A DNA stretch of 59,571 nt from Candidatus Tethybacter castellensis. GTDB taxonomy: Bacteria; Pseudomonadota; Gammaproteobacteria; Tethybacterales; Tethybacteraceae. Of the stretch, positions 15,696 to 29,852 are shown piece by piece. The notes under the pieces were generated by a model. The model searched no databases and was not told the DNA's origin. It was given only the letters and a program-made list of their open reading frames with translations. The stretch spans positions 1-59,571 of the forward strand of contig JAZHEJ010000040.1 in the NCBI GenBank assembly GCA_036679665.1, read 5' to 3'. The position numbers and the translations under genes were made by a program. Each line of letters begins with the position of its first letter. Position 1 is the first letter of the stretch.

Positions 15696-16763
15696 TCAGT
15701 TACCCCAAACCCATAGCGGCGTACGTTGCCAAAACCCAACTACGACTAACCAAACGATGGTTAGTGGTATAAACACTTTCCAGCCTAAACGCATGATTTG
15801 GTCATAGCGGTAGCGGGGAAAAGTTGCCCGAAACCACAAAAATAAAAATAACACAAACGCGGTTTTGAACACCAGCCAGACTAATCCTGGAATCCAGTTA
15901 AACGGCGCTATGTCGAACGGAGGTAACCATCCGCCCAAAAACATGGTGGCCGTCAATACCGAAATCAAAATCATATTCGCGTATTCCGCCAGGAAAAAAA
16001 TCGCAAACGCCATTCCTGAGTATTCGACGTGAAATCCTGCGACTAGCTCTGATTCTCCTTCAGCAACATCAAACGGAGCCCGGTTGGTTTCAGCGACACC
16101 GGAAATCAAATACACGACTAGCATCGGAAAAAGCGGTACAAAATACCAGGACAAGAAAGTAGCGCCTTGCTGTCCTTCTACGATCGCTGACAGATTTAGG
16201 CTGCCTGAAGCCATCAGCACGGTCACGAGTGCGAAACCCATCGCGATCTCGTACGACACCAATTGCGCCGCTGAGCGTAAGCAACCGAGTAGCGCGTATT
16301 TCGAATTGGACGCCCACCCGGCAATAATAATTCCATACACGCCCACCGAGGTCGCAGCCAGCACGAACATAAGCCCGGCATCAATATCGGCCAAAACCAG
16401 CTCGGCGGAAAATGGTATCACCGCCCACACCACCAATGCCGCGCTGATGGATATGGTTGGCGCGATTAAAAACAACATTTTGCTAGCTTCAACCGGCATA
16501 ATGATTTCTTTAAGCAGTAACTTTAGAACGTCGGCAAACGGCTGTAACAATCCATATTTGCCAACACGGTCAGGGCCTACGCGCAACTGCATCGACCCGA
16601 TTACTTTACGCTCAGCGTAGGTAAGATAGGCAACGCTAAGAATGAGCGGAATAACGATCGCCAATATTTTGATGATGGTAACCGTAAAGTATCCAACCCA
16701 ACCTGCATAAACTCCCATCCAAGGTTCAAGCAAGTCGGTTACCTCGTTATTGATAAATTCCAC
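15696..16763 (-). CDS. nuoH: NADH-quinone oxidoreductase subunit H
   Basis: [55 protein letters not shown]. Start placed at GTG 16763, overlapping the nuoG stop. Confidence 0.97.
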
Positions 16764-19186
16764 TACCCAACTCCCCCCACAGCTTGGTGTTCTGTGGTGA
16801 CCTGCCGTACCATAATACGTGAGCACGCACCGAGAATTGCGGTGTGATCATTGCCCCAAGGCAAGCGTGCGCACCCGCGAGCTAAGCTGTCATCAGCACG
16901 TACGATGCAGGTGACTTCAATATTAGACGCAGCTTGGTCCGCTAAGCTTACCAACGCCTGATCGCCTGGGCTGATTCCCAGTTGCGCCAGATCCGCAGGA
17001 TGCATAGACAGCATGCGTGAACGCGCGGCAATTTGAGTTTCCTGTAAAGGTACCGCTCGGCGGACAACCGAATCGCCGGCAAAATGCCCCACTTCCGCCA
17101 ACCGCTCAAATTCCCCGACCGCAAATTTTTCTTTAGCAACGGAACGCGGTGGTGGCATATTTGTCAGCTTACAGTTGAGCAGTTCACTGAAGTCTCCCGC
17201 CGTAGCCAACTTGGCTCGCGCCTGAATGATATCTTCAAAAGTAAAACCCGTAACATCCATCATATTAGCCAGTACGCGCAGAATTTTCCAAGTCGGCCGT
17301 GCTTCGCCCGGTGGAAGTACCGCAGGTTCCATCTTGGCGGCATTACCTTCAAGATTAACCAGTGTGCCCATACATTCACCAAATGACGTCGCGGGTAGCA
17401 TAATGTCGGCGTATTCATTTGCGCCCACGAAGTAACTACCGATATTGATGACGCATGCCTGTTCAAACGCCGCATGCGCTGAGTGTGGATCAGCGCAATC
17501 CAACGGTTCGCAGTCAATCAGCACATAGGCTTTTAACTGCTGGTTTATCATCTGACGGGAGTTTAAACCGGGTTGCTCTAGCTTTTCCAACATAAACCCG
17601 CGGTGTGGCGTCGCTCCGGCAAGCTCAATGCCGATCGCATTAGCTCCATCAACTAAAACTCCTTGAAAACCTTCTAGCAACGACGCAAGCTTGGCGGCCA
17701 GCCGATAAATAAGCGCGTAATCGGTAGCGTTTTGCGCTTGTGCGCCAAGCCAAATCGCGGGATTCTTACGCTCTTGCAGTTGCTTGGCAAATTGCCGATG
17801 CCGCTCGCTAGGCTCACCGAAATCGGTTATCCAGGTTGGTAACGACTCGCCCGCGGATACCATACACTGACAAAGAGCAGCAAGCGTATAGGCATATTTA
17901 GAAGGCGGCACAATAAACTGGTCAGCTATCGGCAGATTGCCGGCCAAGTCCAAAGAACCGACCGCATGGATACCTTTGGCTGCTAATTGCGTAGCGTTGC
18001 GCAGCCTGATCGGTAACAGCGGCAATTCGTTGGCAGGATCAGAGCCGATCAGCAAGGCTCCGTCAAGGTTGTAAATTTCCTCTATCGAAACTCCCAGCCA
18101 CGCCACACCCTGCTGATACCCGTCCAGCTCAAAGTCCTGTTGGCGCAAACGAAAATCTATGTTGAATACGTTAATTGAGCGAAACAGGTCAGCCGCGAGC
18201 ATCGCTTCTTCACACGATACTTGCGGGCCAAGCAAAACGCCGACCTGGTCAGCGCCGTAACTATTGATAATATCCGTTAGCTGTTTGACTGCGTAACTTA
18301 AAGCCGCCTGCCACTCTACCCGCTGTGTTTTGGTCGCGTCAGGTTTTTTGATATAAGGATGTAACAACCGGGCGGCGGAATTTACCCCGGTGTATGCGAA
18401 GCGGTCGCGATCGGATATCCAACATTGATTAATCTCTTCATGGTCTCTGGGTATGACCCGTTTAATCTGCTGATCTTTGGAGTGAATATGGATATAACTG
18501 CCCCAAGAATCATGTCGCGCCACCCCGGCTGTGCGTTTCAATTCCCAAGTGCGCGCCGAAAAGCGATACGGTTTGGAATTCAACGCTCCTACCGGGCATA
18601 TATCGATCATGTTGCCGGATAACTCAGAATCGACGGTGCTTTCAATATAAGGCATGATTTCGGAATGCTCGCCCCGGCCGACCATTCCAAGTTCCATATT
18701 GCCTGCAATTTCCTGACCAAAACGCACGCAACGCGTACAGTGGATACATCTGGTCATCACCGTGGTTATCAGCGGACCCAAGTGTTTTTCAAACACAACA
18801 CGCTTTTTTTCGGTATAACGGGTCGCCGATGCCCCATAGCCCACGGCAAGATCTTGTAATTGGCATTCGCCGCCTTGGTCGCAGATCGGGCAATCGAGCG
18901 GATGATTGATGAGCAAAAATTCCATCACCCCACGTTGCGAAATCTGAGGTTTCGGCGAATTAGTGTCAATCACCATACCGTCGGTCACATATGTTGCGCA
19001 AGACGGCATTGGTTTGGGAGCTTTGTTAATTTCAACCAAACACATTCTGCAGTTGGCCGGGATGGTCAGTTTGGGATGGTAGCAAAAATGCGGTATATAG
19101 ACCCCGGCCTGCCGACAGGCCTCAAATACCGTGGTCCGTCCACGCACATTCCGCTTTTTGCCATTAATGGTGATTTTGACGTCCAT
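16763..19186 (-). CDS. nuoG: NADH-quinone oxidoreductase subunit G
   Basis: [10 protein letters not shown]...[35 protein letters not shown]. Start ATG 19186. Confidence 0.97.
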
Positions 19187-19203
19187 AGGTCCTCGCGATG
19201 CGA

Positions 19204-20487
19204 CTAGCAACCGAATCCTGTGGTAACCATCAGCTCTTGTTCGGTTACGGCGTATTCGAATTCTTCGCCAAAATGCTTCAGAAAACTGACTATCGGGGTG
19301 GCCGCCGCCGCACCCAACGCACAGATTGTATGGCCGTCTATATTGTGGGCCACTTGTTTGAGCAACTCAATATCTTCAGGCTTACCATCGCCACATTTAA
19401 TCCTGTTTACCACTCGCCATAGCCAACCGGTTCCTTCTCGACACGGTGTGCACTGCCCGCAGGATTCTTCGTGATAAAAATATGCTAGCCTCTCTAGCGC
19501 TGTTACCATACAGGTTGTTTCGTCCATGACGATCACCGATCCCGCTCCTAAGATTGAACCGGCCTTGGAAATCGAATCGTAATCCATATTCATCTGCATC
19601 GCCACTTCAGCCGGCAACACGGGTGTTGAAGATCCGCCGGGAATAACCGCTTTGAGCTTTTTGCCGTTGCGCATCCCGCCCGCCATTTCCAACAAGGCGG
19701 CAAACGGCGTACCCAGCGGTACTTCGTAATTGCCCGGTTTTGCAACATGGCCGCTTACCGAAAATATTTTAGTACCTCCGTTATTGGTTTTTCCCAATTT
19801 CAAAAACTCATCCGCACCGGTCTTTAATATGTAGGGTACGCAAGCGAATGTCTCCACGTTATTTATCGTAGTCGGCCGACCATACAGACCGAAAGATGCC
19901 GGGAAAGGCGGCTTGTTGCGCGGTTGGCCTTTTTTGCCCTCAAGCGATTCCAACAGCGCAGTTTCCTCGCCACAAATGTAAGCGCCCCACCCGCAATGAG
20001 CGTGCAACTCAAATGAAAAATCGGTTCCAAACAAACCTTTGCCGATCATTCCCGCGGACTGTGCCGCCATGAGCGCTTTTTCAAACTTTTCGTATACTTC
20101 GAAGATCTCGCCGTGTATATAGACATAGCCGATATTGGCGCCGATAATGTAAGCGGCGATCACCATTCCTTCGATCAGCAGATGCGGGTTGTACAATAAA
20201 ATATCGCGATCTTTGAACGTTCCCGGTTCGCCCTCATCGGCATTGCAAACCAAAAACACATTCCCTTTGATATTTGGCGGGATAAATCCCCATTTGAGTC
20301 CGGAAGGAAAACCGGCGCCGCCACGCCCGCGTAATGCGCTGTCTTTTATCTGGTTGCGCAATTGGCCCGGTTCAATCCGCTTGGCAAGCACACCTTCCAA
20401 CACCTTATACCCGCCGTGTTTGCGGTAGATTTCGATATCTGCCAGATCGCCCTTATCAAGATCAGCAAAGATTACTTCGTTAGCCAT
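19204..20487 (-). CDS. nuoF: NADH-quinone oxidoreductase subunit F
   Basis: LRGRGGAGFP, NADEGEPG, YICGEETALLES, ESCGQCTPCREG, ICALG. Start ATG 20487. Confidence 0.97.
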   Translation of the reverse strand: MANEVIFADLDKGDLADIEIYRKHGGYKVLEGVLAKRIEPGQLRNQIKDSALRGRGGAGFPSGLKWGFIPPNIKGNVFLVCNADEGEPGTFKDRDILLYNPHLLIEGMVIAAYIIGANIGYVYIHGEIFEVYEKFEKALMAAQSAGMIGKGLFGTDFSFELHAHCGWGAYICGEETALLESLEGKKGQPRNKPPFPASFGLYGRPTTINNVETFACVPYILKTGADEFLKLGKTNNGGTKIFSVSGHVAKPGNYEVPLGTPFAALLEMAGGMRNGKKLKAVIPGGSSTPVLPAEVAMQMNMDYDSISKAGSILGAGSVIVMDETTCMVTALERLAYFYHEESCGQCTPCREGTGWLWRVVNRIKCGDGKPEDIELLKQVAHNIDGHTICALGAAAATPIVSFLKHFGEEFEYAVTEQELMVTTGFGC

Positions 20488-20685
20488 GCAATTGAAGTTA
20501 CTAAATCCAGCACGCAATCATCGCTAGCGTTTATTTTACCTGCAACACGACCGAGTATCGACAAAATACGTCGCTCGACCCTCCAACTTGTTTGGTCTGG
20601 GTATACATTACATTGGATAATTCGTAAGTATTAATGTAGATTATGCTATATTCCGCTAGCATCAGCTATTGCCTTTTTTAATTTA

Positions 20686-23127
20686 ATGGATCCAAAATAC
20701 GGTTTTAACGCTGTCGAACGCAAAATCCAGCAACGTTGGGCTAAGCAAGACTGCTTTACGGTCAACGACGACGACCCTCGTCCCAAATACTACAGTTTGT
20801 GTATGTGGCCCTACCCTTCAGGCGATCTACACGTGGGTCATCTGCGCAACTACGCGATCGGTGATGTCTGGGCACGCCACAAACGTATGCTAGGTTTCAA
20901 CGTTCTGCAACCGATGGGCTGGGATGCGTTCGGCAAAGATGCTGAACTCAAAGCCAATAAATTAGGCGTTCACCCCGCTAAGTGGGTCAAACAAAATACG
21001 GCCAATATGCGCCGCGAGCTCAAAGAGCTTGGCTTTATGATTGACTGGAACCGAGAACTCAACGCTAGCAATCTTAAATATTACCGCTGGGAACAACTAC
21101 TGTTCGTGCGCATGTGGGAACAAAATCTTGTCTATTACGAACCCACTAAAGTACTATGGGACAAAGCCACCAAAACCGTAACCTCGCGTCGCGATATAGA
21201 CGACGGCAAAGTGGCCAAAGAAGACATTGAGATCAAGGTTATGCCTGCCTATCTGATGCGCCTTCGCGAGTACGCCAATCAATTGCTTGACGGTCTGACG
21301 CAGGTTAACTGGCCGGAAAAAATTATCAAAGACCAGCAGTACCTGATCGGGCGGTCGGAGGGAATGACGTTGCATTTTGCGCTAGTCGGCAATGCGCCGG
21401 TCGATGCGCTTGAGGTATATACCACTCGTCCAGATACCATCTGCGGCGTCACCTACATGGCGGTGGCCGCAAGCCATCCTTTGGCACAAGCGGCAGCCTC
21501 TGACAATCCGAAACTGGCAAAATTCTGTACGCAGTGCGAACAAACCTTGCCCATGGACGCCGGCAATCCTCACACCGAAAAACAAGGCATGCCTTTGGAC
21601 TTTACAGTTGTCAATCCGGTTTCTGGCAAACATGTCCCGGTATGGGTTGCCGATTACGTGGTCGATGACTACGGAAGCGGCGCGCTAATGGGCGTGCCTG
21701 CTCATGATGAACGCGATTTTAAATTTGCCACCCGGTATCAGATTCCGATCATCCGTGTCATCAACTTGGATCAACAAGATCCTCATCGGCCAATTACTCA
21801 AGCCGAAACATCCTCCGGAATTGCCGTCAACAGCGGCGAACTGGACGGCCTTGATCTTAAAGGCTGCGTAAGCAAACTGGAAGAAATGCTCGGTCCTGAC
21901 AAAGCGCGCCGCGATTATGGACTAAGCTTACGCGACTGGCCGATTAACCGCCACATGTACTGGGGAACCCCGATCCCCATCGTTATCTGTTCCGACTGCG
22001 GACGTGTTCCCGTCCCGGAACATCAGTTGCCGGTATCACTACCCAACGATTTTAAACACGGTCCGCAGGCATTGGCCGACCACCCTGATTTTGCTTTTTG
22101 TCCATGCCCGCGATGCGGTGCCAAGGCACGCCGGGAAACCGACACCATGGACACTTTTGTGAATTCCGCGTGGTACTTCGCGCGCTTTACCTGTCCTGAT
22201 AATTCCACGCAAATGATTGATAACCGAGCCAAGCGGTGGCTTCCTTGCGATCATTATTTCGGTGGTGACGAACACGCCCAAGGCCATCTGGTTTACGCGC
22301 GTTTTATACACAAAGTGTTGCGCGATCTCGGCCTGTATCCAAAAGGGTGCGGGGACGAACCTTTCCAAGCCTTGCTGTGCCAGGGCATGGTACTAGGTGC
22401 CGATGGTAAAAAAATGTCCAAATCACAAGATAACACTATCATGGCCAAGCATATTCTTGATTGCTACGGCGCGGACACCGCACGGTTGTACATAATTGGC
22501 ATGGGTAATCCGAAAGATGCCTACCCGTGGAACGAAGAGCATGTCAAAGACCATGCCATGTTTTTACAAAACTTGTGGCAATTGGCCCTAAAACGCCGCG
22601 ATCAGATTGCCGCGGGCAAAGAGCAAAAACTTGCCCCGGAACTCCAACTCAACCTTAACAAAATCCTCAATAACATTGATCGCAACTTGCGCGATCAACA
22701 CCTGAATAATTTGGTCTTCGGAGGCATTCACAGCATCCGCAACCTTATCCGGGACAACGCCGACAGCGCCGCAATGCAATATCAAGGTTTCATGCACTTG
22801 CTCAAAGTGATGAATCTAATCTGCCCTCATATCGCCGAAGAGCTATGGCAACAGCTTGGCTTTGAAGGTCTGGTTATCGACTCCGCTTGGTGGCCCGCTT
22901 TGACCGATGCAGATCTACACAGTGCCACAACCGTATTTGTAGTGCAGGTAAATGGCAAACGACGAGACCAATTTGAAGCCCCGTTTGACACCGACGCCAC
23001 CGAATTACTCGAATTAGCACAACAGCGTCCTAACATCGCCCGCTATATTTCAGGCAAGCAAATTGCCAAAAGCAAGGTGATCCGACAAGGCAACAGTCAT
23101 GGTCTCATTTTTTTCGCCCTAAGATAG
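20686..23127 (+). CDS. leuS: Leucyl-tRNA synthetase, copy A (catalytic motifs intact, divergent)
   Basis: PYPSGDLHVGH (HIGH 20830-20841), MGWDAFG, CP1 TTRPDT and AHDERD, DTMDTF..SAWY, KMSKS (22411-22425), C-terminal QVNGK. Confidence 0.92.
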   Translation: MDPKYGFNAVERKIQQRWAKQDCFTVNDDDPRPKYYSLCMWPYPSGDLHVGHLRNYAIGDVWARHKRMLGFNVLQPMGWDAFGKDAELKANKLGVHPAKWVKQNTANMRRELKELGFMIDWNRELNASNLKYYRWEQLLFVRMWEQNLVYYEPTKVLWDKATKTVTSRRDIDDGKVAKEDIEIKVMPAYLMRLREYANQLLDGLTQVNWPEKIIKDQQYLIGRSEGMTLHFALVGNAPVDALEVYTTRPDTICGVTYMAVAASHPLAQAAASDNPKLAKFCTQCEQTLPMDAGNPHTEKQGMPLDFTVVNPVSGKHVPVWVADYVVDDYGSGALMGVPAHDERDFKFATRYQIPIIRVINLDQQDPHRPITQAETSSGIAVNSGELDGLDLKGCVSKLEEMLGPDKARRDYGLSLRDWPINRHMYWGTPIPIVICSDCGRVPVPEHQLPVSLPNDFKHGPQALADHPDFAFCPCPRCGAKARRETDTMDTFVNSAWYFARFTCPDNSTQMIDNRAKRWLPCDHYFGGDEHAQGHLVYARFIHKVLRDLGLYPKGCGDEPFQALLCQGMVLGADGKKMSKSQDNTIMAKHILDCYGADTARLYIIGMGNPKDAYPWNEEHVKDHAMFLQNLWQLALKRRDQIAAGKEQKLAPELQLNLNKILNNIDRNLRDQHLNNLVFGGIHSIRNLIRDNADSAAMQYQGFMHLLKVMNLICPHIAEELWQQLGFEGLVIDSAWWPALTDADLHSATTVFVVQVNGKRRDQFEAPFDTDATELLELAQQRPNIARYISGKQIAKSKVIRQGNSHGLIFFALR

Positions 23128-23220
23128 CCTGACTTTTATTATGTTTTTGCTCACGACTTGCCGAACCATGTCACAGCGGCACACAAACTCGACATATCAG
23201 CTAGCGCCACGCTTCGTCAC

Positions 23221-26200
23221 ATGAGCATCGACACCGGTTATGACCATGCCCGCATTAAGCGCCAGGCGCAATCGCGCTGGGCGGCAAAAAACAAATCACA
23301 CATAGCCAAAGCTGATGGCTCCGGTGAATTTTGCTGTCAAGCCATGTTCGCAGATCTGGCCGGCAAATTTCATCTAGGGCACTGTCGTCGCTATGTATTG
23401 AACGATATCATGACCCGCTTTCAACTTATGCAAGGCCGCAACACCAAGCAAGTTGTTGGTTTCGAAACCTATGGATTACAGGTTCATCTTGCTGCGCGTG
23501 ACGCAAATCTTGATCCGGAAAAATGGGCTGTGGAAACGACGGCGCATGCCGTTACCACACTGAAAGAATTGGGAATTTTGACTGATTGGAACAAGATAGT
23601 TGTTACCAATTCCGCCCAACAATGTCACATGCAACAACAATTGTTTCTTCACCTGTGGAACGCTGAGAACTCACCGATTTTGCGCAAAAAACAGCCGGGA
23701 ATTGCTTACTGGGATCCGGGAACTCGCATGTATTTATCGTTGCGGCAGTTAGTCAACGGCCGCGGCCCAGAATCCGGCATGCTGACCGAAATTCGTAATA
23801 TTTCAAATTACGCTCTTTCAATAAGTCATCAACTTGCCGACGATTTGTTACAAAATTTGGAGACCCTACCGCGCTGGGACCGCCGGGTTAAAAACATGCA
23901 GCGCGAGAGCATCGGCCGCGAAAACGGACTGACCATCTCTTTTGATTTGCTTGATCGCAACGGCAAGCCCCTACCCGCGGTTCAGGTGTTTACCTCGCAT
24001 CCGGATACGATTATGGGCACGACGTTTTTGGCCGTGGCCACCACTCATCCGCTTGCCCGTAAAGTTGCCCGGGACGATCCGCAAATAGCGACATTCTGCG
24101 AAGCCGTAAACCATCCCAACTACGCGATTGAAAAACTTGCCGAAGATAAACGACAAGAAGGCATGCCTTTGGGAATTTACGCGATTAACCCGGTTACCGG
24201 AGATCATGTGCCGGTATGGGTCGCCAACTATGTGATCGCAGATTACGGAACTAGCGCGGTGCTAGGCATCCCCGCTCACGATCAGCGCAATTACAACTTT
24301 GCGCAACGGCACAATTTGCCGATGCGTAAAGTCGCGAGAACTTCCGATCAGGACATAGCTGCTCCGCTTACCAAACCTTTAGTGGATAAATTCGCCCTTG
24401 TCTGCAACAGCGGTTCGCTGGAACAACCGCTCAATCGGCTCAAAAAAGCTTTGCAAAATGAACTGCAATCACGTCAGCCTCAAGACGGCAGCAATCCCGA
24501 CACGCTGATCCGGCAAAGATATTTTGACCAACAGATTAATCTTTGCATCCATGACCTGCTGACCAAACGCGACATCAAAGTCAGCCCGACGGCGGTATCA
24601 AGGCTGCGAAGCTGGCCGATAAGTCAACCTGATTACTGGGGATGTCCGGTCCCGCTGGTTCATTGTTCGCAATGCGGCACAGTTCCGGTTCCAGGCGAGC
24701 AGTTGCCGCTGACGTTGCCGCAATACCGGGATAATCAAGACAGCCTGGATTGCTATCCGGATTTTATCGCTTGCGTTTGTCCACAATGCGGTGCGGACGC
24801 TCAACGGGAAACTGATACGCTTGATCCGTCATTTAGTCTTTCGTGGATGTCGCAATCTAAAAACATGACTAACGCCAAGTTGCCGGACGCATCGTTGGAT
24901 TATTACTGTTGCGGTGCGGAACAAGCCACCAGCCATCTGCTTTGCGCCCGAATTTTGCAACACCTGTTAGCCCGATCTGGCGTTGAACAAAATGAAACCT
25001 TCGACGAACCGTTCACCGAGGTGTTCAGTCCGGGAATGGTGATGAACTATGGCCTGCCGATGACCAAGTCATATGCCAATGCCATTGATCCAACCCAGTT
25101 GCTGGATAACTACGGGGCGGATATGCTCAGGCTTTATCTGTCTGCAATCGAAAATCCTCGCAACAACCTTCACTGGGATTCAGACAAACTTATCAGTTTG
25201 CAAGGAATCATCATTTCCTCCGAGCTCGTCAAGCTGCGTTGCGGGACCTTAACCGGCCTTCAACTTGATTTGGTGCATAATTTGCTCTCTAAAAGTGAAA
25301 TTAATCGTTTACAAAAAGGGCTGATCAATCGTTCTGAATTCAAACAACTAAAAACCGGTAAACTTGAAGCGAGCAAATACGCCCAAGTCAAAGAACTGAT
25401 TGGCGAAGGAGCGATCATTCGTTTGCAATCAGGCCTGCTCAACGAAGCCCAGGCGCGTCAGCTACGCAATGGCGAACTGGAAAATGCCAAGTTGCGCGAG
25501 GTACTGACAATAATTGATGAATTTCAGCTTAACCATTTGCGCAACGGACTACTAGATAAAAATGAATTTCGGCTGTTGCAGATCGGCAAGCTTGCCGGTA
25601 AAAAACTATCCGCTGTCCAAAAGCTTGTCCCGGCCAAGGTACTGTCCGAATTACAGACAAATTCGATTGATCCTGACGAACCTGGCGCGGTAAGTACGCT
25701 ACAAGAGCGGTTGTTGGACAACTTTGAACGCGAAGCCTGGCTTGAATACACAACTGAAGTTGAAATGTTGCGCAAAGTCCGCACGATACTTACCGAGGAT
25801 GAGATCAGTTGTATGCAAAAAGGCCTGCTCAATCAACAAGAATTCGCTGCTTTGCGCGCCAAGAAATTACCCGAAGAAAAAATGGCTCGGGTGCGCGCGA
25901 TACTCAATGATAACGAAATTCTGCGCTTACAAGAAGGACTGTTGTCGCGCGAAGAAATCTTTCAGCTCAAAGCTGGCAAGCTAGCTGCAAAGCGCCTGCA
26001 TGCAGTGCTGGAAATTATTGACGAAAAACAAATTAAACAACTGCAAAACGGGGTATTGCAACCATCTGAACACGAACAACTACGCAAAATTTTAGGCAGT
26101 AGCCGCAAAATGGCTCAATTACGCGCAGGTACTTTAGGTGAAGACAAGCTTCGCCAAATTCGCGAGCAATTTACCGCTAATCAGCTTGAGCGCTATCAGC

Positions 26201-27147
26201 AAGCTTGCCTCAGTGCCGACACCATGGCGAGACTCGCGAACTTTATCAGCACCGCGCAAATGAACCGATTGGTAAATTTCGTTTCTGACGTCAAGCAGAA
26301 GCAATTGAAAAAAGTTCTCTCCGTAAAACAACTGAAGTTATTGCGGCAACGCAAATTAGGCAAGCAGTTGCGATTTCCTTTGTTAAAATTTATTGATCAG
26401 CGCCTAGAAAATAAACTGTTCAATTTTCTTACCAAACAAGCTCAAGAGCGACTGTTTGACTATTTGCCCTATGAACGCATGGAGCAGTTGCTTGGATTTA
26501 GCGAATACCTATGGCAGCTTGTTACTTCACGGCAGAAGATGATTATCCAAGGATCCAAATCGCGCAGTGGCACCCAAAGTGCGCGGCGTTGTCAGCTTCA
26601 CAAAACCCTAAAAGCGATTAACGCCTGTTACACCCCCGAATCACATAACGCCGACAAATCTGAAGCGGGAGGGATGGAACTGAACAAAATGGTCACGCGT
26701 TGCAAAGATATTATCGTGCTGCTAGATGAAGCGTGCGACCCTGACGAAGCCGATGATTGCGCCTTTGCTTCCGAAGCGGTCACCATCTTGTTGCAGGTCC
26801 TACATCCGATCATGCCCCATATAACCGAAGAATTGTGGGCGATGTTACAAATGCCGCAGTTGCTAGTTGAAACACCTTGGCCGCAACCAGATCAGGCGGC
26901 ATTGGAATTTTTTACCGATGTTACATGCATCATCCAAGAAAATGGCCGCAAGCGCCATGCGTTTAGCTTATCTGCCAGCGCAGACCCCGCTACCACCATT
27001 GAGCTCGCCAGCGCCGAACTGAACGAATTAGCGATTCGCCAAGGCCATTGTGGTTTTCCGAGTTTAGGCAAGCAGGTAGTACGTATTGAGCATGCCAAAA
27101 AACAAGATCAGATTGTTATCAACTTCGTGCTATACCTTCATAATTAA
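23221..27147 (+). CDS. Leucyl-tRNA synthetase paralog, copy B (degenerate active and editing sites, ~430-aa repeat insertion)
   Basis: LeuRS collinearity: HLGH 23371-23382, WDP...GRG, TSHPDT, PVWVANYV, AHDQRN, CxxC knuckles, PMTKS 25057-25071, LHPIMPHITEELW, QENGR. Start probably ATG 23221 (ORF is open from TTG 23158). Confidence 0.88.
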   Translation: MSIDTGYDHARIKRQAQSRWAAKNKSHIAKADGSGEFCCQAMFADLAGKFHLGHCRRYVLNDIMTRFQLMQGRNTKQVVGFETYGLQVHLAARDANLDPEKWAVETTAHAVTTLKELGILTDWNKIVVTNSAQQCHMQQQLFLHLWNAENSPILRKKQPGIAYWDPGTRMYLSLRQLVNGRGPESGMLTEIRNISNYALSISHQLADDLLQNLETLPRWDRRVKNMQRESIGRENGLTISFDLLDRNGKPLPAVQVFTSHPDTIMGTTFLAVATTHPLARKVARDDPQIATFCEAVNHPNYAIEKLAEDKRQEGMPLGIYAINPVTGDHVPVWVANYVIADYGTSAVLGIPAHDQRNYNFAQRHNLPMRKVARTSDQDIAAPLTKPLVDKFALVCNSGSLEQPLNRLKKALQNELQSRQPQDGSNPDTLIRQRYFDQQINLCIHDLLTKRDIKVSPTAVSRLRSWPISQPDYWGCPVPLVHCSQCGTVPVPGEQLPLTLPQYRDNQDSLDCYPDFIACVCPQCGADAQRETDTLDPSFSLSWMSQSKNMTNAKLPDASLDYYCCGAEQATSHLLCARILQHLLARSGVEQNETFDEPFTEVFSPGMVMNYGLPMTKSYANAIDPTQLLDNYGADMLRLYLSAIENPRNNLHWDSDKLISLQGIIISSELVKLRCGTLTGLQLDLVHNLLSKSEINRLQKGLINRSEFKQLKTGKLEASKYAQVKELIGEGAIIRLQSGLLNEAQARQLRNGELENAKLREVLTIIDEFQLNHLRNGLLDKNEFRLLQIGKLAGKKLSAVQKLVPAKVLSELQTNSIDPDEPGAVSTLQERLLDNFEREAWLEYTTEVEMLRKVRTILTEDEISCMQKGLLNQQEFAALRAKKLPEEKMARVRAILNDNEILRLQEGLLSREEIFQLKAGKLAAKRLHAVLEIIDEKQIKQLQNGVLQPSEHEQLRKILGSSRKMAQLRAGTLGEDKLRQIREQFTANQLERYQQACLSADTMARLANFISTAQMNRLVNFVSDVKQKQLKKVLSVKQLKLLRQRKLGKQLRFPLLKFIDQRLENKLFNFLTKQAQERLFDYLPYERMEQLLGFSEYLWQLVTSRQKMIIQGSKSRSGTQSARRCQLHKTLKAINACYTPESHNADKSEAGGMELNKMVTRCKDIIVLLDEACDPDEADDCAFASEAVTILLQVLHPIMPHITEELWAMLQMPQLLVETPWPQPDQAALEFFTDVTCIIQENGRKRHAFSLSASADPATTIELASAELNELAIRQGHCGFPSLGKQVVRIEHAKKQDQIVINFVLYLHN
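25282..26100 (+). repeat. Protein-level tandem repeat, 38-aa (114-nt) period, inside leuS copy B
   Basis: Units begin at 25282, 25396, 25510, 25786, 25900 and 26014 (last one partial), plus a degenerate unit at 25624. Consensus (I/L)(I/L)xxxEIxxLQxGLLxxxEFxxLxxGKLxxxKLxxVxx. Confidence 0.9.
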
Positions 27148-27149
27148 GC

Positions 27150-27602
27150 ATGAATTTTTTATCGTTGATGACGGTGGCGGTACTTATCACCGGTTGTGTC
27201 TTGAGCGCCACTGGTGACAACTCATTGCCACTGAAATCAATTACGGTTTCCGCATCCGACTCTGAGTTGAACGATGAATTTGAACACCAACTTGCTAATC
27301 TTGCCTTAACCGGCAATCGCCTGATCTCGCTTACCCTTCGCGAAAGCACTTCCAACTCGATCACGGCGCGCGCCGCGGACGGATCTGGATCCAAGCGCCG
27401 CCTTAGCTACGCATTACACTATCGGATTGAAACTACGGATCAACCAGAATTTAACGGAGTAATCAGGAAAAAACAGTCGTTAGACCACAGCGAAAATACT
27501 CATTTAGCAAACCGACTTGCTTTTGAGAGATTTTTCTTCGCTGCTCGCACTGAGAGCATTGATAAACTAATCAACACGCTCAAGATTCGGAACTGGCAAT
27601 GA
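27150..27602 (+). CDS. lptE: LPS-assembly lipoprotein (divergent)
   Basis: Lipobox-like LITGC; located between leuS and holA. Confidence 0.75.
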   Translation: MNFLSLMTVAVLITGCVLSATGDNSLPLKSITVSASDSELNDEFEHQLANLALTGNRLISLTLRESTSNSITARAADGSGSKRRLSYALHYRIETTDQPEFNGVIRKKQSLDHSENTHLANRLAFERFFFAARTESIDKLINTLKIRNWQ

Positions 27603-28624
27603 AAATCAGCAGCGCAGCGCTTGCTGCAAACTTGCAAAATCCACGTCCACCCTATCTGCTGCTCAATAATGAGCCAGTTCTACTAACTGAGGACCGGGAC
27701 AGTGTTCGCAAGGCATTAGCCTGCGACGAGCGTAAATTGTTTGTGTTGGATCAAGACTTTGATATGGAAGACGCTAAGCTGGAAGCATCGGCGGGTAATT
27801 TATTCGGCGGCTCCACTTTACTGGAGTTTATTTTAGTGGACGCGCTCAACGCGGACACCGCCAAACAACTTACCGCAATTGCCAAACTCGCGCAGGCTAA
27901 CCAGCGACCGGTTATCATCGCGAGCCCCAATATCGTACGCAAGGCGGCTTGGGTCAATCAACTAGAAGATTTTTTTACCGTGGTAACGCAAGTATTCGTA
28001 AAGCGACACAATATGTGTGGCTGGGTCAAGGCGCGAGGCAGAAGTTTTGGTCTAGATATAGATGATGAAGCTGCGCAGTACATTGCGGATATGACTGAAG
28101 GCAATTTGAGTTCCGCAGCTCAAGAAATTTCTAAACTCAAATTGTTACACGTTGGAAGCGAGCAGGTTAGCAGACAATTGGTACAGGAATTACTGGTGGA
28201 TCAAAGTCGCGATGATCTTTTTTCATTGCGTGAATCTTTGGCTGCGGGCAGCAGTGTTCGCTCTTTACGCGCGATTCGCAACCTCAAAGCGGCTAAGGTT
28301 CCCCCTACCTTGCTGGTTTGGGCACTGGCCGAAGAAACCCGTAGTTTGTTAAGATTGATTGACAGACACAGCAAGCCGCGTGGCGTATATGGTAAGCATC
28401 TTACTGATTTGGCCAACATCGCCAAACGGGTCCCCCGCACCGAGGTTAAATATTTGCTCGCGGTAATCGCCCGAGCTGACTGGGTTGCCAAGGGTATGAT
28501 CGTCGCGGATCCGTGGCAGGACTTTGAAAGAATCGCTATCGCTTTTACCCAACTGGTCAGTAACAATCGGTATAAATTTTTACTTCTTCAAAATGAATTT
28601 AAACCCCAAGTCAAAGCAAACTGA
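27599..28624 (+). CDS. holA: DNA polymerase III delta subunit
   Basis: YLL...EP.L, SAGNLFGG, EGNLSSAAQEISKL, D.VAKG; leuS-lptE-holA synteny. Confidence 0.88.
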   Translation: MKISSAALAANLQNPRPPYLLLNNEPVLLTEDRDSVRKALACDERKLFVLDQDFDMEDAKLEASAGNLFGGSTLLEFILVDALNADTAKQLTAIAKLAQANQRPVIIASPNIVRKAAWVNQLEDFFTVVTQVFVKRHNMCGWVKARGRSFGLDIDDEAAQYIADMTEGNLSSAAQEISKLKLLHVGSEQVSRQLVQELLVDQSRDDLFSLRESLAAGSSVRSLRAIRNLKAAKVPPTLLVWALAEETRSLLRLIDRHSKPRGVYGKHLTDLANIAKRVPRTEVKYLLAVIARADWVAKGMIVADPWQDFERIAIAFTQLVSNNRYKFLLLQNEFKPQVKAN

Positions 28625-29852
28625 CCTAATCGGCGACGCGCTTAGCGCAATGCCTGCGCTGGCGGCCTCCGATATCGAAGTTCGCAATAATATATTAAAG
28701 CGATTCGCAAATCTTTTATTGCGTGATCGCGAAAAGCTACTCGAAATCAATGCCGCGGAAGTGGCACGCGGCGTGGCCGCCGGTCTTAGCGAATCGGTAT
28801 GCGACCGTCTTAGCCTCGCCGGCGGTAACTTCGCCTCGATGGTTGATTCAATTCACTCTGTTGTCGCGCTACCTGACCCCCTTGGCTCAGGTCCTGAACA
28901 CAAGCAACCAAACGGTATTTGGGTAAGCCGGATGCGTGTACCGTTAGGACTGGTATGTTTTATCTACGAGTCGCGTCCGAATGTCACCGCTGACGGCGCG
29001 GCACTTTGTATTAAATCAGGCAATGGAGTCATATTGCGCGGTGGTAAAGAAGCTCTCGACAGTAACCTTGCGATCGGCCGCCTCGCCCAGCAAGCGCTCA
29101 CTGACGAAAATTTACCTCCTTCGATTGTGCAGGTAATAAGCGATCCAGATCGTAATGAAATTTCGCGCCTGCTCACTGACGAGCGCTTCGATATGGTCAT
29201 ACCGCGTGGCGGAAAAGGATTGGTCGAGCACGTGCAAAAGATCGCCACGGCACCGGTATTGGCTCATTTGTACGGCAACTGTCACCTATATGTCCATAGC
29301 AGTGCCGATCTGCAACAAGCCGCACCAATCATCGTCAACGCTAAAACGCAAAGGCCCGGCACCTGCAACGCGTTGGAGTCGCTACTTGTAGACGAAGCGG
29401 TGGCAGCAAAGTTGCTCGCTCGAATTGCCCCCCTGCTTTTTGCTGCGCAAGTGCAAATCGTTGGCTGCCCGGCAACGTGCGCAATCCTTGGCGATAACTG
29501 TACACAGGCTCAAAACAGCGATTGGGATGAAGAATATTTGACTTTAAAAATTTCCATTAAAATTGTCGCCGGTTTAAATGATGCGGTAAAGTGGATTAAC
29601 CAACACGGTTCAAAACATACAGACGGCATACTGAGCACCGACCGCGACGCCATCGAACACTTCATACAATTTGTGGATTCGAGTTCGGTGATGGTCAACA
29701 CTTCCACACGATTTGCAGACGGGTACATGTACGGACTAGGAGCTGAGACCGGCGTGTCTACCGGCAAGTTTCATGCGCGAGGCCCGGTGGGACTTGAAGG
29801 ACTGACCACTTACAAATGGATTGTCCGTAGCGACGGCGCAACTCGCAACTGA
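28593..29852 (+). CDS. proA: Gamma-glutamyl phosphate reductase
   Basis: VPLGLV..IYESRPNVT, LRGGKEA, IPRGG, PGTCNALE, NTSTRFADG, GKFHARGPVGL. Start about ATG 28593. Confidence 0.96.
   Translation: MNLNPKSKQTDLIGDALSAMPALAASDIEVRNNILKRFANLLLRDREKLLEINAAEVARGVAAGLSESVCDRLSLAGGNFASMVDSIHSVVALPDPLGSGPEHKQPNGIWVSRMRVPLGLVCFIYESRPNVTADGAALCIKSGNGVILRGGKEALDSNLAIGRLAQQALTDENLPPSIVQVISDPDRNEISRLLTDERFDMVIPRGGKGLVEHVQKIATAPVLAHLYGNCHLYVHSSADLQQAAPIIVNAKTQRPGTCNALESLLVDEAVAAKLLARIAPLLFAAQVQIVGCPATCAILGDNCTQAQNSDWDEEYLTLKISIKIVAGLNDAVKWINQHGSKHTDGILSTDRDAIEHFIQFVDSSSVMVNTSTRFADGYMYGLGAETGVSTGKFHARGPVGLEGLTTYKWIVRSDGATRN

What the first reader, a model, noticed from the sequence alone, without database searches (positions are those of the whole stretch)
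23341..25071. LeuRS copy B has a remodelled amino-acid pocket and lacks the editing aspartate, yet keeps ATP-binding residues
Seen, B versus A: MFADLAG for MWPYPSG; GFETYG for GWDAFG; DTLDPSFSLSWM for DTMDTFVNSAWY; GAEQATSH for GDEHAQGH; TSHPDT for TTRPDT; AHDQRN (AAT 24289-24291) for AHDERD; QENGR for QVNGK. HLGH and the second lysine of KMSKS (PMTKS) are retained. Established: in E. coli LeuRS, D80 binds the alpha-amino group, F493/Y499/H533 line the leucine pocket and D345 is essential for post-transfer editing. Inference: B probably cannot activate or edit leucine normally but may still bind ATP or adenylates, or a different amino acid. It is a pseudoenzyme or neofunctionalised adenylation enzyme rather than a random ruin.
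Basis: partly seen in the sequence, partly recalled or inferred. Interest (0 to 1): 0.72.

Follow-up and report, generated by a model that had tools for sequence, protein, structure and literature searches.

The report
Catalytically dead LeuRS copy kept by selection
Next to its working leucyl-tRNA synthetase gene, this sponge-symbiont-type bacterium keeps a second, much longer copy whose amino-acid and ATP site has decayed while its proofreading domain, tRNA-binding parts and a new helical arm stay conserved, so it looks like a non-enzymatic RNA-binding protein and not a new adenylating enzyme.

Summary
Copy B (23158/23221-27147, 1329 aa) is a real, selected gene. About 18 orthologues exist, always directly after an A-type leuS. 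They occur only in one gammaproteobacterial family, the one that holds the sponge symbiont AqS2. Whole-gene dN/dS is 0.13.

The orthologues do not support the "keeps ATP-binding residues" reading. HxGH is intact in 8 of 18 and was lost at least 5 times. The KMSKS lysine survives in 4 of 18. Y43, F493 and Y499 are replaced by many different residues. Former synthetic-site positions vary more than other once-invariant positions of the catalytic body (1.21 vs 0.83 bits, p=0.015).

The editing pocket is conserved but altered: D345N in 16 of 18, T248S and M336L fixed. The LeuRS fold, the C-terminal tRNA-binding domains and a basic 424-aa helical solenoid are predicted with high confidence.

Verdict: B is a pseudo-synthetase, probably a non-catalytic tRNA(Leu)- or RNA-binding partner of A. 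"Pseudoenzyme" is supported; "neofunctionalised adenylation enzyme" is not. It is a new variant of a known kind.

The parts
20686..23127 (+). Copy A: the working leuS (813 aa). It has MWPYPSG, HVGH, GWDAFG, TTRPDT, HDERD and KMSKS. It lacks the leucine-specific domain and has a divergent ZN domain.
   Evidence: TIGR00396 score 777.5 bits, above the 548.4 cut-off. It is the only LeuRS above cut-off in the 1.69-Mb genome. It keeps 25 of 29 synthetic-site and 13 of 13 editing-site invariant residues.
23158..27147 (+). Copy B: LeuRS-derived pseudo-synthetase. It is 1329 aa from TTG 23158, or 1308 aa if ATG 23221 is the start.
   Evidence: 33% identity to A; 436 bits, below cut-off; orthologues; omega 0.13.
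23344..23382 (+). Former amino-acid/adenylate loop and HIGH motif: MFADLAG (E. coli 40-46; Y43D, P44L) and HLGH (49-52), followed by the B-specific Cys76 (V53C).
   Evidence: Y43 is replaced by S, N, D, T or I across the clade. HxGH is intact in only 8 of 18.
23458..23475 (+). GFETYG, the equivalent of GWDAFG. The alpha-amino-binding Asp80 is Glu103 here.
   Evidence: D in 9 and E in 6 of the 15 B sequences in the set. Role of D80: PMC13454842.
23704..23796 (+). ZN-domain remnant AYWDPGT...LVNGRGPESGML, without zinc cysteines. Changes: E169R, W177P, R178E.
   Evidence: Roles of E169, W177 and R178: PMC13454842.
23908..24423 (+). CP1 editing domain. It is well conserved. TSHPDT lies at 23992-24009 (T248S, R249H; T247, D251, T252 kept). 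AHDQRN lies at 24274-24291 (D342 and R344 kept, D345N = AAT 24289-24291).
   Evidence: Pfam PF13603, E 4.9e-49. Editing-site entropy 0.35 bits vs 0.51 for other CP1 invariant positions. D345N in 16 of 18. omega 0.070.
24433..24579 (+). B-specific two-helix hairpin inserted between CP1 and the return to the catalytic core.
   Evidence: Gapped against A and E. coli. Helices at 398-417 and 428-449 of the model, which starts at B residue 22.
24601..24849 (+). Second half of the catalytic core: RLRSWPISQPDYWG (D419S, R424Q, R426D), a Cys4 knuckle (HCSQCG 24661-24678, CVCPQCG 24772-24792) and DTLDPSFSLSWM (F493S, S496L, Y499M).
24901..24945 (+). YYCCGAEQATSHLLC, the equivalent of IYIGGIEHAIMHLLY. 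I528C and G529C are fixed in all B copies. H533Q and Y540C are changed. E532 and H537 are kept.
25045..25071 (+). NYGLPMTKS, a degenerate KMSKS loop. K619P is fixed in the clade. Lys637 (K622) is kept here but in only 4 of 18 orthologues.
25207..26478 (+). 424-aa insertion of short helices (about 38-aa repeat, RLQxGLLxxxEFxxLxxGKL). It is basic: pI 9.7, net charge +19.
   Evidence: AF2 gives a solenoid of 8-10-residue helices with pLDDT mostly above 90. No PDB fold match outside the LeuRS parts. The insertion profile finds only 13 proteins in 1.84 billion, 7 of them B-type.
26479..27144 (+). Anticodon-binding helical domain and C-terminal tRNA-binding domain (IQENGR 26935-26949). A B-specific loop GHCGFPSLG lies at 27043-27069. 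The protein ends in VINFVLY.
   Evidence: Pfam PF08264, E 1.2e-13. Model pLDDT about 90. Foldseek aligns about 235 columns to E. coli LeuRS-tRNA complexes. Alignment.
27150..28624 (+). Downstream operon genes: a 150-aa ORF in the lptE position (27150-27602, no family hit) and holA (27599-28624).
   Evidence: TIGR01128 holA, 130 bits. The same order is found in all related loci.

Best explanation
B is a pseudo-synthetase.

Origin (shown). It arose by tandem duplication of leuS in the ancestor of part of one gammaproteobacterial family, the GTDB family that contains the sponge symbiont AqS2 (Tethybacterales in the literature). It has been kept ever since as the second gene of a leuS(A)-B-(lptE-position ORF)-holA unit.

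What is kept and what is lost (shown). Selection maintains the LeuRS fold, the CP1 editing domain, a Cys4 knuckle, the anticodon-binding and C-terminal tRNA-binding domains, and a new basic 424-aa helical solenoid. Constraint on the aminoacylation site has been lost: the Leu pocket, HIGH, KMSKS and the ZN-domain ATP and CCA contacts. The HLGH and Lys637 in this window are the least-eroded remnant of that site, not a conserved function.

How it works (inferred). B acts without catalysing adenylation. It most likely binds tRNA(Leu), or another RNA. The 3' adenosine would sit in the conserved, charge-neutralised CP1 pocket (D345N, T248S, M336L). The body of the RNA would be held by the C-terminal domain and the basic arm. 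In this way B could chaperone, sequester or hand over tRNA for A, or tether A's substrate to another partner.
For: Duplication:
- The A and B clades are sisters (SH-aLRT 99). Together they are sister to the single canonical LeuRS of G001, a genome of the same family.

Distribution:
- B or its insert is found in 4 of 5 species genomes of the family and in 0 of 14 others of the order, and in 0 of 22 class-level relatives.
- There are 13 B-type and 13 A-type clusters among 5.8 billion proteins.

Operon:
- The gene order is identical in 8 fetched loci. A and B overlap by 4 nt in several.
- Promoter- and terminator-like sites are no more frequent than chance across the scanned 20300-28800 stretch, and none lies in the A/B gap.

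Selection:
- omega is 0.129 for B and 0.065 for A. By domain in B: 0.065 (N-terminal catalytic half), 0.070 (CP1), 0.13 (C-terminal catalytic half), 0.15 (insert), 0.19 (anticodon-binding plus C-terminal domains).

Loss of the synthetic site:
- Motif tables.
- At least 5 independent HxGH losses and at least 3 K622 losses.
- Entropy 1.21 vs 0.83 bits, permutation p=0.015; in A the order is reversed, 0.10 vs 0.19.
- AqS2's own B reads NAGS / PMAPG.

Conserved editing pocket:
- Entropy 0.35 bits. In the 15-sequence B set, T252, D251, D342, R344, Y330 and G331 are kept in 15 of 15 and T247 in 13 of 15. D345N is found in 16 of the 18 sequences.

Fold:
- N-terminal part: pLDDT 86, TM 0.8 to N. gonorrhoeae and E. 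coli LeuRS.
- C-terminal part: pLDDT 91, with the anticodon-binding and C-terminal domains matching LeuRS-tRNA complexes.

Basic arm:
- pI 9.3-10.4 in 9 of 10 orthologues, against about 6 for the rest of the window's protein.

Precedent:
- Duplicated LeuRSs that bind tRNA(Leu) but do not charge it (PMC9437257).
- Catalysis-independent rescue of tRNA defects by LeuRS domains (PMC3210327 abstract).
Against: - No binding, expression or activity data exist.
- RNA binding is inferred only from retained domains and charge.
- The window's own B, with its nearest relative and two others, still has HxGH and K622. Residual ATP binding in this particular protein cannot be excluded.
- D80 is only changed to Glu.
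- The N-terminal catalytic half is strongly constrained (omega 0.065). That could reflect a ligand-binding role I have not recognised, not only fold maintenance.
- Cys is fixed at positions 53, 528 and 529 near the old ATP site and is unexplained.
Confidence: 0.6

Rival explanations
1. B is an obligate non-catalytic subunit of a two-protein LeuRS. After duplication A and B co-evolved, and B binds A and supplies tRNA handling or stability that A has lost. This is compatible with B being a pseudoenzyme. It differs from the best explanation in that B would act through A and not on its own.
For: - A-type LeuRS and B always occur together, and canonical LeuRS genomes lack B.
- The genes overlap by 4 nt in several genomes.
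- A's stem branch is long (0.88), and A has lost 23% of residues invariant elsewhere. These include the TVLANEQV motif with E169, and W177 of the ZN domain.
- 11 invariant residues are lost in A but kept in B.
Against: - Losses in A and B are positively correlated, not complementary (odds ratio 3.1, p=4e-4). B has also lost E169, W177 and R178.
- Bacterial LeuRS is a monomer (established knowledge), and no interface is known.
- A keeps 25 of 29 synthetic-site and 13 of 13 editing-site residues and a basic residue at 178. It has Trp at position 41, which might compensate for W177.
- No multimer model could be run.
Confidence: 0.2
2. One reading: B is a neofunctionalised adenylation enzyme that still binds ATP and activates a different amino or other acid.
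For: - The window's B keeps HLGH, E532, H537 and Lys637. D80 is conservatively Glu.
- The N-terminal catalytic half is under strong purifying selection.
- P44L, I528C, G529C and K619P are fixed in all B copies, so part of the site has a new constant make-up.
Against: - HxGH is intact in 8 of 18 and K622 in 4 of 18 orthologues, with repeated independent losses.
- The ATP gamma-phosphate partner R178 is Glu, and K619 is Pro.
- Pocket positions 43, 493, 496, 499 and 533 each carry 5-8 different residues across the clade. They are more variable than the rest of the catalytic body.
Confidence: 0.08
3. B is a free-standing trans-acting deacylase. Its CP1 pocket, re-specified by D345N, T248S and M336L, would hydrolyse an acyl-tRNA(Leu) whose alpha-substituent is not a charged amine (for example N-blocked or hydroxy-acyl), or some other ester.
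For: - The editing pocket is the best-conserved site in B, and its changes are fixed, not variable.
- T252, T247, D251, D342 and R344 are kept.
- The tRNA-binding domains are kept.
Against: - D345 is critical for deacylation in E. coli LeuRS (D345A; PMC4932531), and no substrate is known for an Asn variant.
- A keeps a complete editing site, so no editing gap is evident.
- One orthologue keeps Asp and one has Ser at this position.
Confidence: 0.1
4. B is a decaying duplicate (pseudogene in the making) with no function.
For: - Catalytic motifs are eroded.
- B evolves about twice as fast as A.
Against: - The open frame is intact in every genome (no internal stops).
- omega is 0.13.
- B is conserved across orthologues from about 48% G+C (this window) to the GC-rich locus L009 (G+C not measured).
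- Large B-specific blocks are conserved, and the models are confident.
Confidence: 0.02

Closest known systems
LeuRS-I of Sulfolobaceae (duplicated archaeal LeuRS; described in the review PMC9437257; the primary paper, Weitzel et al. 2020, could not be read here)
   Same: A second LeuRS kept beside the housekeeping one. It does not aminoacylate, is reported to bind tRNA(Leu), and its role outside translation is unknown.
   Different: - LeuRS-I is of the archaeal type.
- It still makes leucyl-adenylate.
- It has a disrupted CP1 and an acidic C-terminal domain.
- B is the reverse: the synthetic site is eroded, CP1 is conserved, the appendage is basic, and a 424-aa internal solenoid has been added.
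LeuRS2 of Halobacteria (Natrialba magadii NmLeuRS2; PMC4005665)
   Same: A duplicated LeuRS in one compartment. The second copy has much lower aminoacylation and editing activity.
   Different: - NmLeuRS2 is still an active enzyme with the catalytic motifs.
- It has no large insertion.
- It is not in tandem with copy 1 as far as I read.
Canonical bacterial LeuRS (E. coli, N. gonorrhoeae, T. thermophilus structures)
   Same: - Same fold and domain order (TM about 0.8).
- CP1 inserted at the same point.
- C-terminal tRNA-binding domain present.
- Same genomic position upstream of lptE-holA.
   Different: - B scores below the equivalog cut-off (436 vs 548 bits).
- The Leu pocket, KMSKS, the ZN-domain contacts and the editing Asp are changed.
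- There are two insertions, of 49 aa and 424 aa.
Non-catalytic synthetase paralogues in general (HisZ; the pseudo-dimeric trypanosome TyrRS; listed in PMC9437257)
   Same: A synthetase fold kept for binding or regulation after loss of catalysis, sometimes working together with the active copy.
   Different: - Those belong to other synthetase families and have known partners.
- No class Ia bacterial example with a retained editing domain appears in that review's table.

Membership tests
Bacterial leucine--tRNA ligase (NCBIfam TIGR00396 leuS_bact, equivalog) | Whole-protein score at or above the curated cut-off (548.4 bits) | tested here: not met
   B scores 435.7 bits. A scores 777.5 bits.
Bacterial leucine--tRNA ligase | Class I signature HIGH (HxGH) | tested here: inconclusive
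   The window's B has HLGH, but only 8 of 18 orthologues keep HxGH. The others have YLGQ, HAGS, NAGS, QLGH, QMGD, SLGH or NINH.
Bacterial leucine--tRNA ligase | Class I signature KMSKS with both lysines | tested here: not met
   The motif reads PMTKS. K619P is found in all B copies. K622 is kept in 4 of 18.
Bacterial leucine--tRNA ligase | Leucine/adenylate pocket: Y43 lid, D80, W177 and F493 subcavity, H533 | tested here: not met
   Y43D, D80E, W177P, F493S, H533Q. Residue roles from PMC13454842.
Bacterial leucine--tRNA ligase | CP1 editing site with Thr-rich peptide and the universally conserved Asp (E. coli D345) | tested here: not met
   The peptide reads TSHPDT, with T252 kept. D345 is Asn378. 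D345A is editing-deficient (PMC4932531).
Bacterial leucine--tRNA ligase | LeuRS fold and domain order (Rossmann core, CP1, anticodon-binding domain, C-terminal domain) | tested here: met
   Pfam PF09334/PF00133, PF13603 and PF08264. AF2 pLDDT 86 and 91. Foldseek TM 0.8 to 6q89 and 4aq7.
Bacterial leucine--tRNA ligase | Leucylation of tRNA(Leu) | not testable with these tools
   Needs ATP-PPi exchange and aminoacylation assays.
Pseudoenzyme (synthetase-like paralogue) | Homologous fold, catalytic motifs not conserved, and purifying selection | tested here: met
   Fold. Motif loss. omega 0.13.
LeuRS-I type (Sulfolobaceae) | Archaeal-type LeuRS with disrupted CP1 that still forms Leu-AMP | tested here: not met
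   B is of the bacterial type, sister to A within Gammaproteobacteria. CP1 is intact. Adenylate formation is not testable here.

The most novel reading that the evidence does not exclude
B is a sensor or clamp for the 3' end of tRNA(Leu). Its proofreading pocket, neutralised by the fixed Asp-to-Asn change, would have been re-specified to hold the uncharged CCA end, or an acyl group without a free amine. The basic 424-aa solenoid, a fold with no solved relative, would dock the complex to another cell component. This would give these reduced-genome sponge symbionts a translation-linked regulatory or tRNA-chaperoning device built from a dead synthetase that co-evolves with the live one.
Probability: 0.2. 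Interest if true: 0.8.

Novelty: new variant of a known kind. Interest (0 to 1): 0.62.

Why it matters
Duplicated synthetases that have left translation are known, but their jobs are mostly unsolved. For LeuRS only two archaeal cases are listed in the 2022 review I read.

This would be a bacterial class Ia example with an unusually clean natural experiment:
- The active site has eroded repeatedly and independently.
- The editing domain, the tRNA-binding domains and a large new helical arm stay under selection.
- The active sister copy next door has itself changed sharply.

This makes the question of what a LeuRS scaffold can do without catalysis directly testable with two recombinant proteins and tRNA(Leu). 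It also flags a lineage marker for a family of sponge symbionts.

Tried and rejected
- Extra or odd tRNA(Leu) as a partner for B: rejected. The genome has the ordinary five tRNA(Leu) isoacceptors among 43 tRNAs, and none lies in the window.
- Third LeuRS elsewhere in the genome: none found.
- Horizontal acquisition of B: rejected. B is sister to A within the family.
- Complementary subfunctionalisation at residue level: not seen. Losses in A and B coincide rather than complement each other.
- Resistance or self-immunity LeuRS (AgnB2-like): rejected, because most orthologues lack the catalytic motifs. 5ah5 is only one of many equal fold matches.
- Origin of the repeat arm in a known family: only a sub-threshold SHOCT hit in Pfam. 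No PDB fold match. The profile search over 1.84 billion proteins found only B-type proteins plus one FecR-domain protein with similar repeats and a few weak hits.
- dN/dS for the G003/G004 pair: discarded. I used stop-to-stop frames that include non-coding 5' parts, and dS is near saturation.
- First MAFFT L-INS-i run: timed out and was redone with --auto.
- Weitzel et al. 2020 (PMC7135992): not held.
Full report
**1. Observation**

The window holds two LeuRS-like genes in tandem on the + strand. A runs 20686-23127 (813 aa). B runs 23158-27147 (1329 aa from TTG; the first ATG is at 23221). They are 33% identical over the shared parts.

I aligned B to E. coli LeuRS, taken from NC_000913. The changes in B are:
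- Synthetic site: P42A, Y43D, P44L, S45A, D80E, F493S, S496L, Y499M, H533Q.
- KMSKS loop: K619P, S621T.
- Editing site: T248S, R249H, D345N.
- ZN domain: E169R, W177P, R178E.

H49, G51, H52, E532, H537 and K622 are kept.

The roles of these residues come from papers:
- Leucine is held by the Leu41 carbonyl and Asp80.
- Tyr43 closes over it.
- Trp177, Tyr43 and Phe493 shape the hydrophobic subcavity.
- Arg178 pairs with the ATP gamma-phosphate.
- Glu169 contacts C75 and Ser623 (all PMC13454842).
- D345A is the standard editing-deficient enzyme (PMC4932531).

I could not find Y499 in a paper I could read.

**2. Which copy is the enzyme**

- A passes the leuS_bact equivalog model (777 bits, cut-off 548). 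B does not (436 bits).
- The 1.69-Mb, 87.6%-complete genome has no third LeuRS.
- It has an ordinary set of five tRNA(Leu) genes.
- A keeps 25 of 29 synthetic-site and 13 of 13 editing-site residues that are invariant in 21 other LeuRSs. B keeps 11 of 29 and 7 of 13.

**3. B is a family, not an accident**

A search of 5.8 billion proteins found 13 clusters of B-type proteins. They score 707-1830 bits, and the full-length ones are 1279-1325 aa. Ordinary LeuRS follows after a gap, at 419 bits or less. The mirror search with A found 13 A-type clusters at 1223-1294 bits, then a gap to 724 bits.

In all eight loci fetched the order is the same: nuoG<-nuoF<- | ->A->B->150-aa ORF->holA->proA->trkA->trkH. 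A and B overlap by 4 nt in several (holA and proA named). Promoter- and terminator-like sites across the scanned 20300-28800 stretch are no more frequent than chance, and none lies in the A/B gap.

Among 41 related species genomes, B is present only in the window's own GTDB family. A profile of B's insertion found it in 4 of 5 genomes of that family and in 0 of 14 others of the order.

The family member without B (G001) has a single canonical LeuRS followed by a holA-sized ORF.

One family genome (G004) carries a B identical to that of NCBI assembly GCA_015278175.1, 'Betaproteobacteria bacterium AqS2'. AqS2 is Amphirhobacter heronislandensis, a reduced-genome sponge symbiont of the order Tethybacterales (PMC8546597). 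The window's organism is therefore probably a relative of these symbionts. This is an inference from kinship, not from a name on the window.

**4. Origin**

In a maximum-likelihood tree the A and B clades are sisters (support 99). Together they are sister to G001's LeuRS, then to the rest of the order. So B arose by tandem duplication inside the family, not by transfer.

Both stems are long (A 0.88, B 1.3 changes per site). Within the clades B evolves roughly twice as fast as A.

**5. Selection**

I used the closest pair with DNA, P0011 and P0012 (93% identical).
- Whole-gene dN/dS is 0.129 for B and 0.065 for A.
- By domain B gives 0.065 (N-terminal catalytic half), 0.070 (CP1), 0.13 (C-terminal catalytic half), 0.15 (insertion) and 0.19 (anticodon-binding plus C-terminal domains).

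These two proteins have HAGS in place of HIGH and PMAPG in place of KMSKS. The constraint therefore does not depend on the catalytic signatures.

**6.

A re-specified adenylation enzyme should show changed but conserved pocket and ATP residues. A dead site should show variable ones. The 18 B-type sequences show the second pattern.

| Position | State across B-type sequences |
|---|---|
| HxGH | intact in 8 of 18; otherwise YLGQ, HAGS, NAGS, QLGH, QMGD, SLGH, NINH |
| K622 | kept in 4 of 18 |
| Y43 | S, N, D, T or I |
| F493 | L, Y, S or M |
| Y499 | eight different residues |
| H533 | H, N, Q, L or S |

- On the tree, HxGH was lost at least 5 times and K622 at least 3 times.
- Former synthetic-site positions have a mean entropy of 1.21 bits in B. 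Other once-invariant positions of the catalytic body have 0.83 bits (permutation p=0.015). In A the order is reversed, 0.10 vs 0.19.

Hence the HLGH and Lys637 in this window are the least-eroded state of a site that the family no longer needs. Residual ATP binding by this particular protein cannot be excluded. It is not the conserved function.

**7. What is conserved instead**

*Editing pocket.* It has the lowest entropy of any site set in B: 0.35 bits, against 0.51 for other CP1 invariant positions.
- T252, D251, D342, R344, Y330 and G331 are kept in 15 of 15 sequences of the set, and T247 in 13 of 15.
- T248S and M336L are fixed there.
- D345 is Asn in 16 of the 18 sequences.

So the pocket has been remodelled to a new, constant state. 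The residue that pairs with the substrate's charged amine has been neutralised.

*Other B-specific fixed features.*
- P44L, V53C, I528C, G529C, K619P.
- The block LVNGRGPESGML.
- The Cys4 knuckle.
- A 49-aa helical hairpin after CP1.
- A GYPxFP loop in the C-terminal domain.

*Structure models.*
- B residues 22-690: pLDDT 86, pTM 0.84. They superpose on bacterial LeuRS structures with TM about 0.8.
- B residues 640-1329: pLDDT 91. The 424-aa insertion forms a run of 8-10-residue helices, followed by the normal anticodon-binding helices and the C-terminal alpha/beta domain. Only these LeuRS parts find PDB matches, in E. coli LeuRS-tRNA complexes.

*The insertion.*
- It is basic: pI 9.3-10.4 and net charge +9 to +33 in 9 of 10 orthologues. 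In the window's protein the rest has a pI near 6.
- It is essentially unique to this family. The profile found 13 hits in 1.84 billion proteins, 7 of them B-type.

**8. Most likely mechanism**

*Shown.* B is a selected, catalytically eroded LeuRS paralogue. It keeps the editing domain and the tRNA-binding domains and has gained a basic helical arm. It sits in one operon-like unit with A.

*Inferred.* B works by binding and not by catalysis, most likely to tRNA(Leu). The 3' end would lie in the CP1 pocket, and the arm would add RNA or partner contacts.

*Precedents.*
- LeuRS-I and LeuRS2 keep tRNA(Leu) affinity with little or no charging (PMC9437257; PMC4005665).
- LeuRS domains rescue tRNA defects independently of catalysis (PMC3210327).

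**9. Rivals**

(a) *B as an obligate partner of A.* Strict co-occurrence, gene overlap and A's own sharp divergence favour it. A lacks the TVLANEQV motif, E169 and W177, carries Trp41, and has lost 23% of residues invariant elsewhere. But losses in A and B coincide rather than complement each other (odds ratio 3.1, p=4e-4).

(b) *Neofunctionalised adenylation enzyme.* Section 6 speaks against it.

(c) *Trans-deacylase with altered specificity.* This is possible because the pocket is conserved. Against it, the Asp needed for deacylation in E. coli LeuRS is absent, and A has a complete editing site.

(d) *Decaying pseudogene.* Excluded by selection and by intact frames.

**10. Novelty**

No paper in the searchable library links Tethybacterales with a tRNA synthetase. 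The review table of duplicated synthetases lists only the two archaeal LeuRS cases.

The gene is deposited in public assemblies, for example in the AqS2 genome, but I found no characterisation of it.

I class it as a new variant of a known kind (a synthetase-derived pseudoenzyme). It differs from known cases in keeping the editing domain while losing the synthetic site, and in its large internal solenoid.

**11. Limits**

- No multimer or RNA-complex prediction could be run.
- The B start codon is uncertain (TTG 23158 or ATG 23221).

Noticed in passing
window 20686-23127 (copy A): The working LeuRS is itself unusual. All A-type proteins have Trp at E. coli position 41 (MWPYPSG). They lack the conserved TVLANEQV motif, E169 and W177 of the ZN domain, and they have no zinc cysteines and no leucine-specific domain. 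They end in GIVFFV instead of K(L/I)(L/I)N(L/I)V. About 23% of residues invariant in other LeuRSs are changed, and the stem branch is 0.88 changes per site.
   Followed up: partly
window 23383-23385, 24907-24912, 24943-24945 (B Cys76, Cys584, Cys585, Cys596): Cysteines are fixed in all B-type proteins at E. coli positions 53, 528 and 529, and in most at 540, around the former ATP site. Whether they are a metal or redox site or just core packing could not be checked without model coordinates.
   Followed up: no
window 25207-26478: The 424-aa insertion is predicted with very high confidence (pLDDT mostly above 90) as a solenoid of 8-10-residue helices, from only about 14 B-type sequences in a 29-row alignment. 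It has no PDB fold match. A 1225-aa FecR-domain protein (P0246) from a metagenome carries similar LxxGxL repeats (E 2.7e-20).
   Followed up: partly
window 24433-24579: A B-specific 49-aa two-helix hairpin replaces the short linker between CP1 and the RLRDW strand.
   Followed up: no
window 27150-27602: A 150-aa ORF sits in the position where lptE lies in E. coli. It has no Pfam or NCBIfam hit. It is conserved in position and size (150-165 aa) in all related loci, and its start lies within a few bases of B's stop.
   Followed up: partly
window 27043-27069: A conserved G(Y/H)PxFPxxG loop is inserted in B's C-terminal tRNA-binding domain. A has a different 4-residue insertion (xxHG) nearby.
   Followed up: no
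L026 (G001:C105): One genus of the same GTDB family has a single canonical LeuRS (normal ZN motif, KIINIVT end) and no B. This brackets the duplication within the family.
   Followed up: yes
window 16763-20517 (- strand): nuoG and nuoF lie divergent from leuS. The same nuoG<-nuoF | leuS junction is conserved in several related contigs (L028, L029, L030). In the AqS2-group contigs AAA_15/AAA_21 ATPase genes lie there instead (L031-L033).
   Followed up: no
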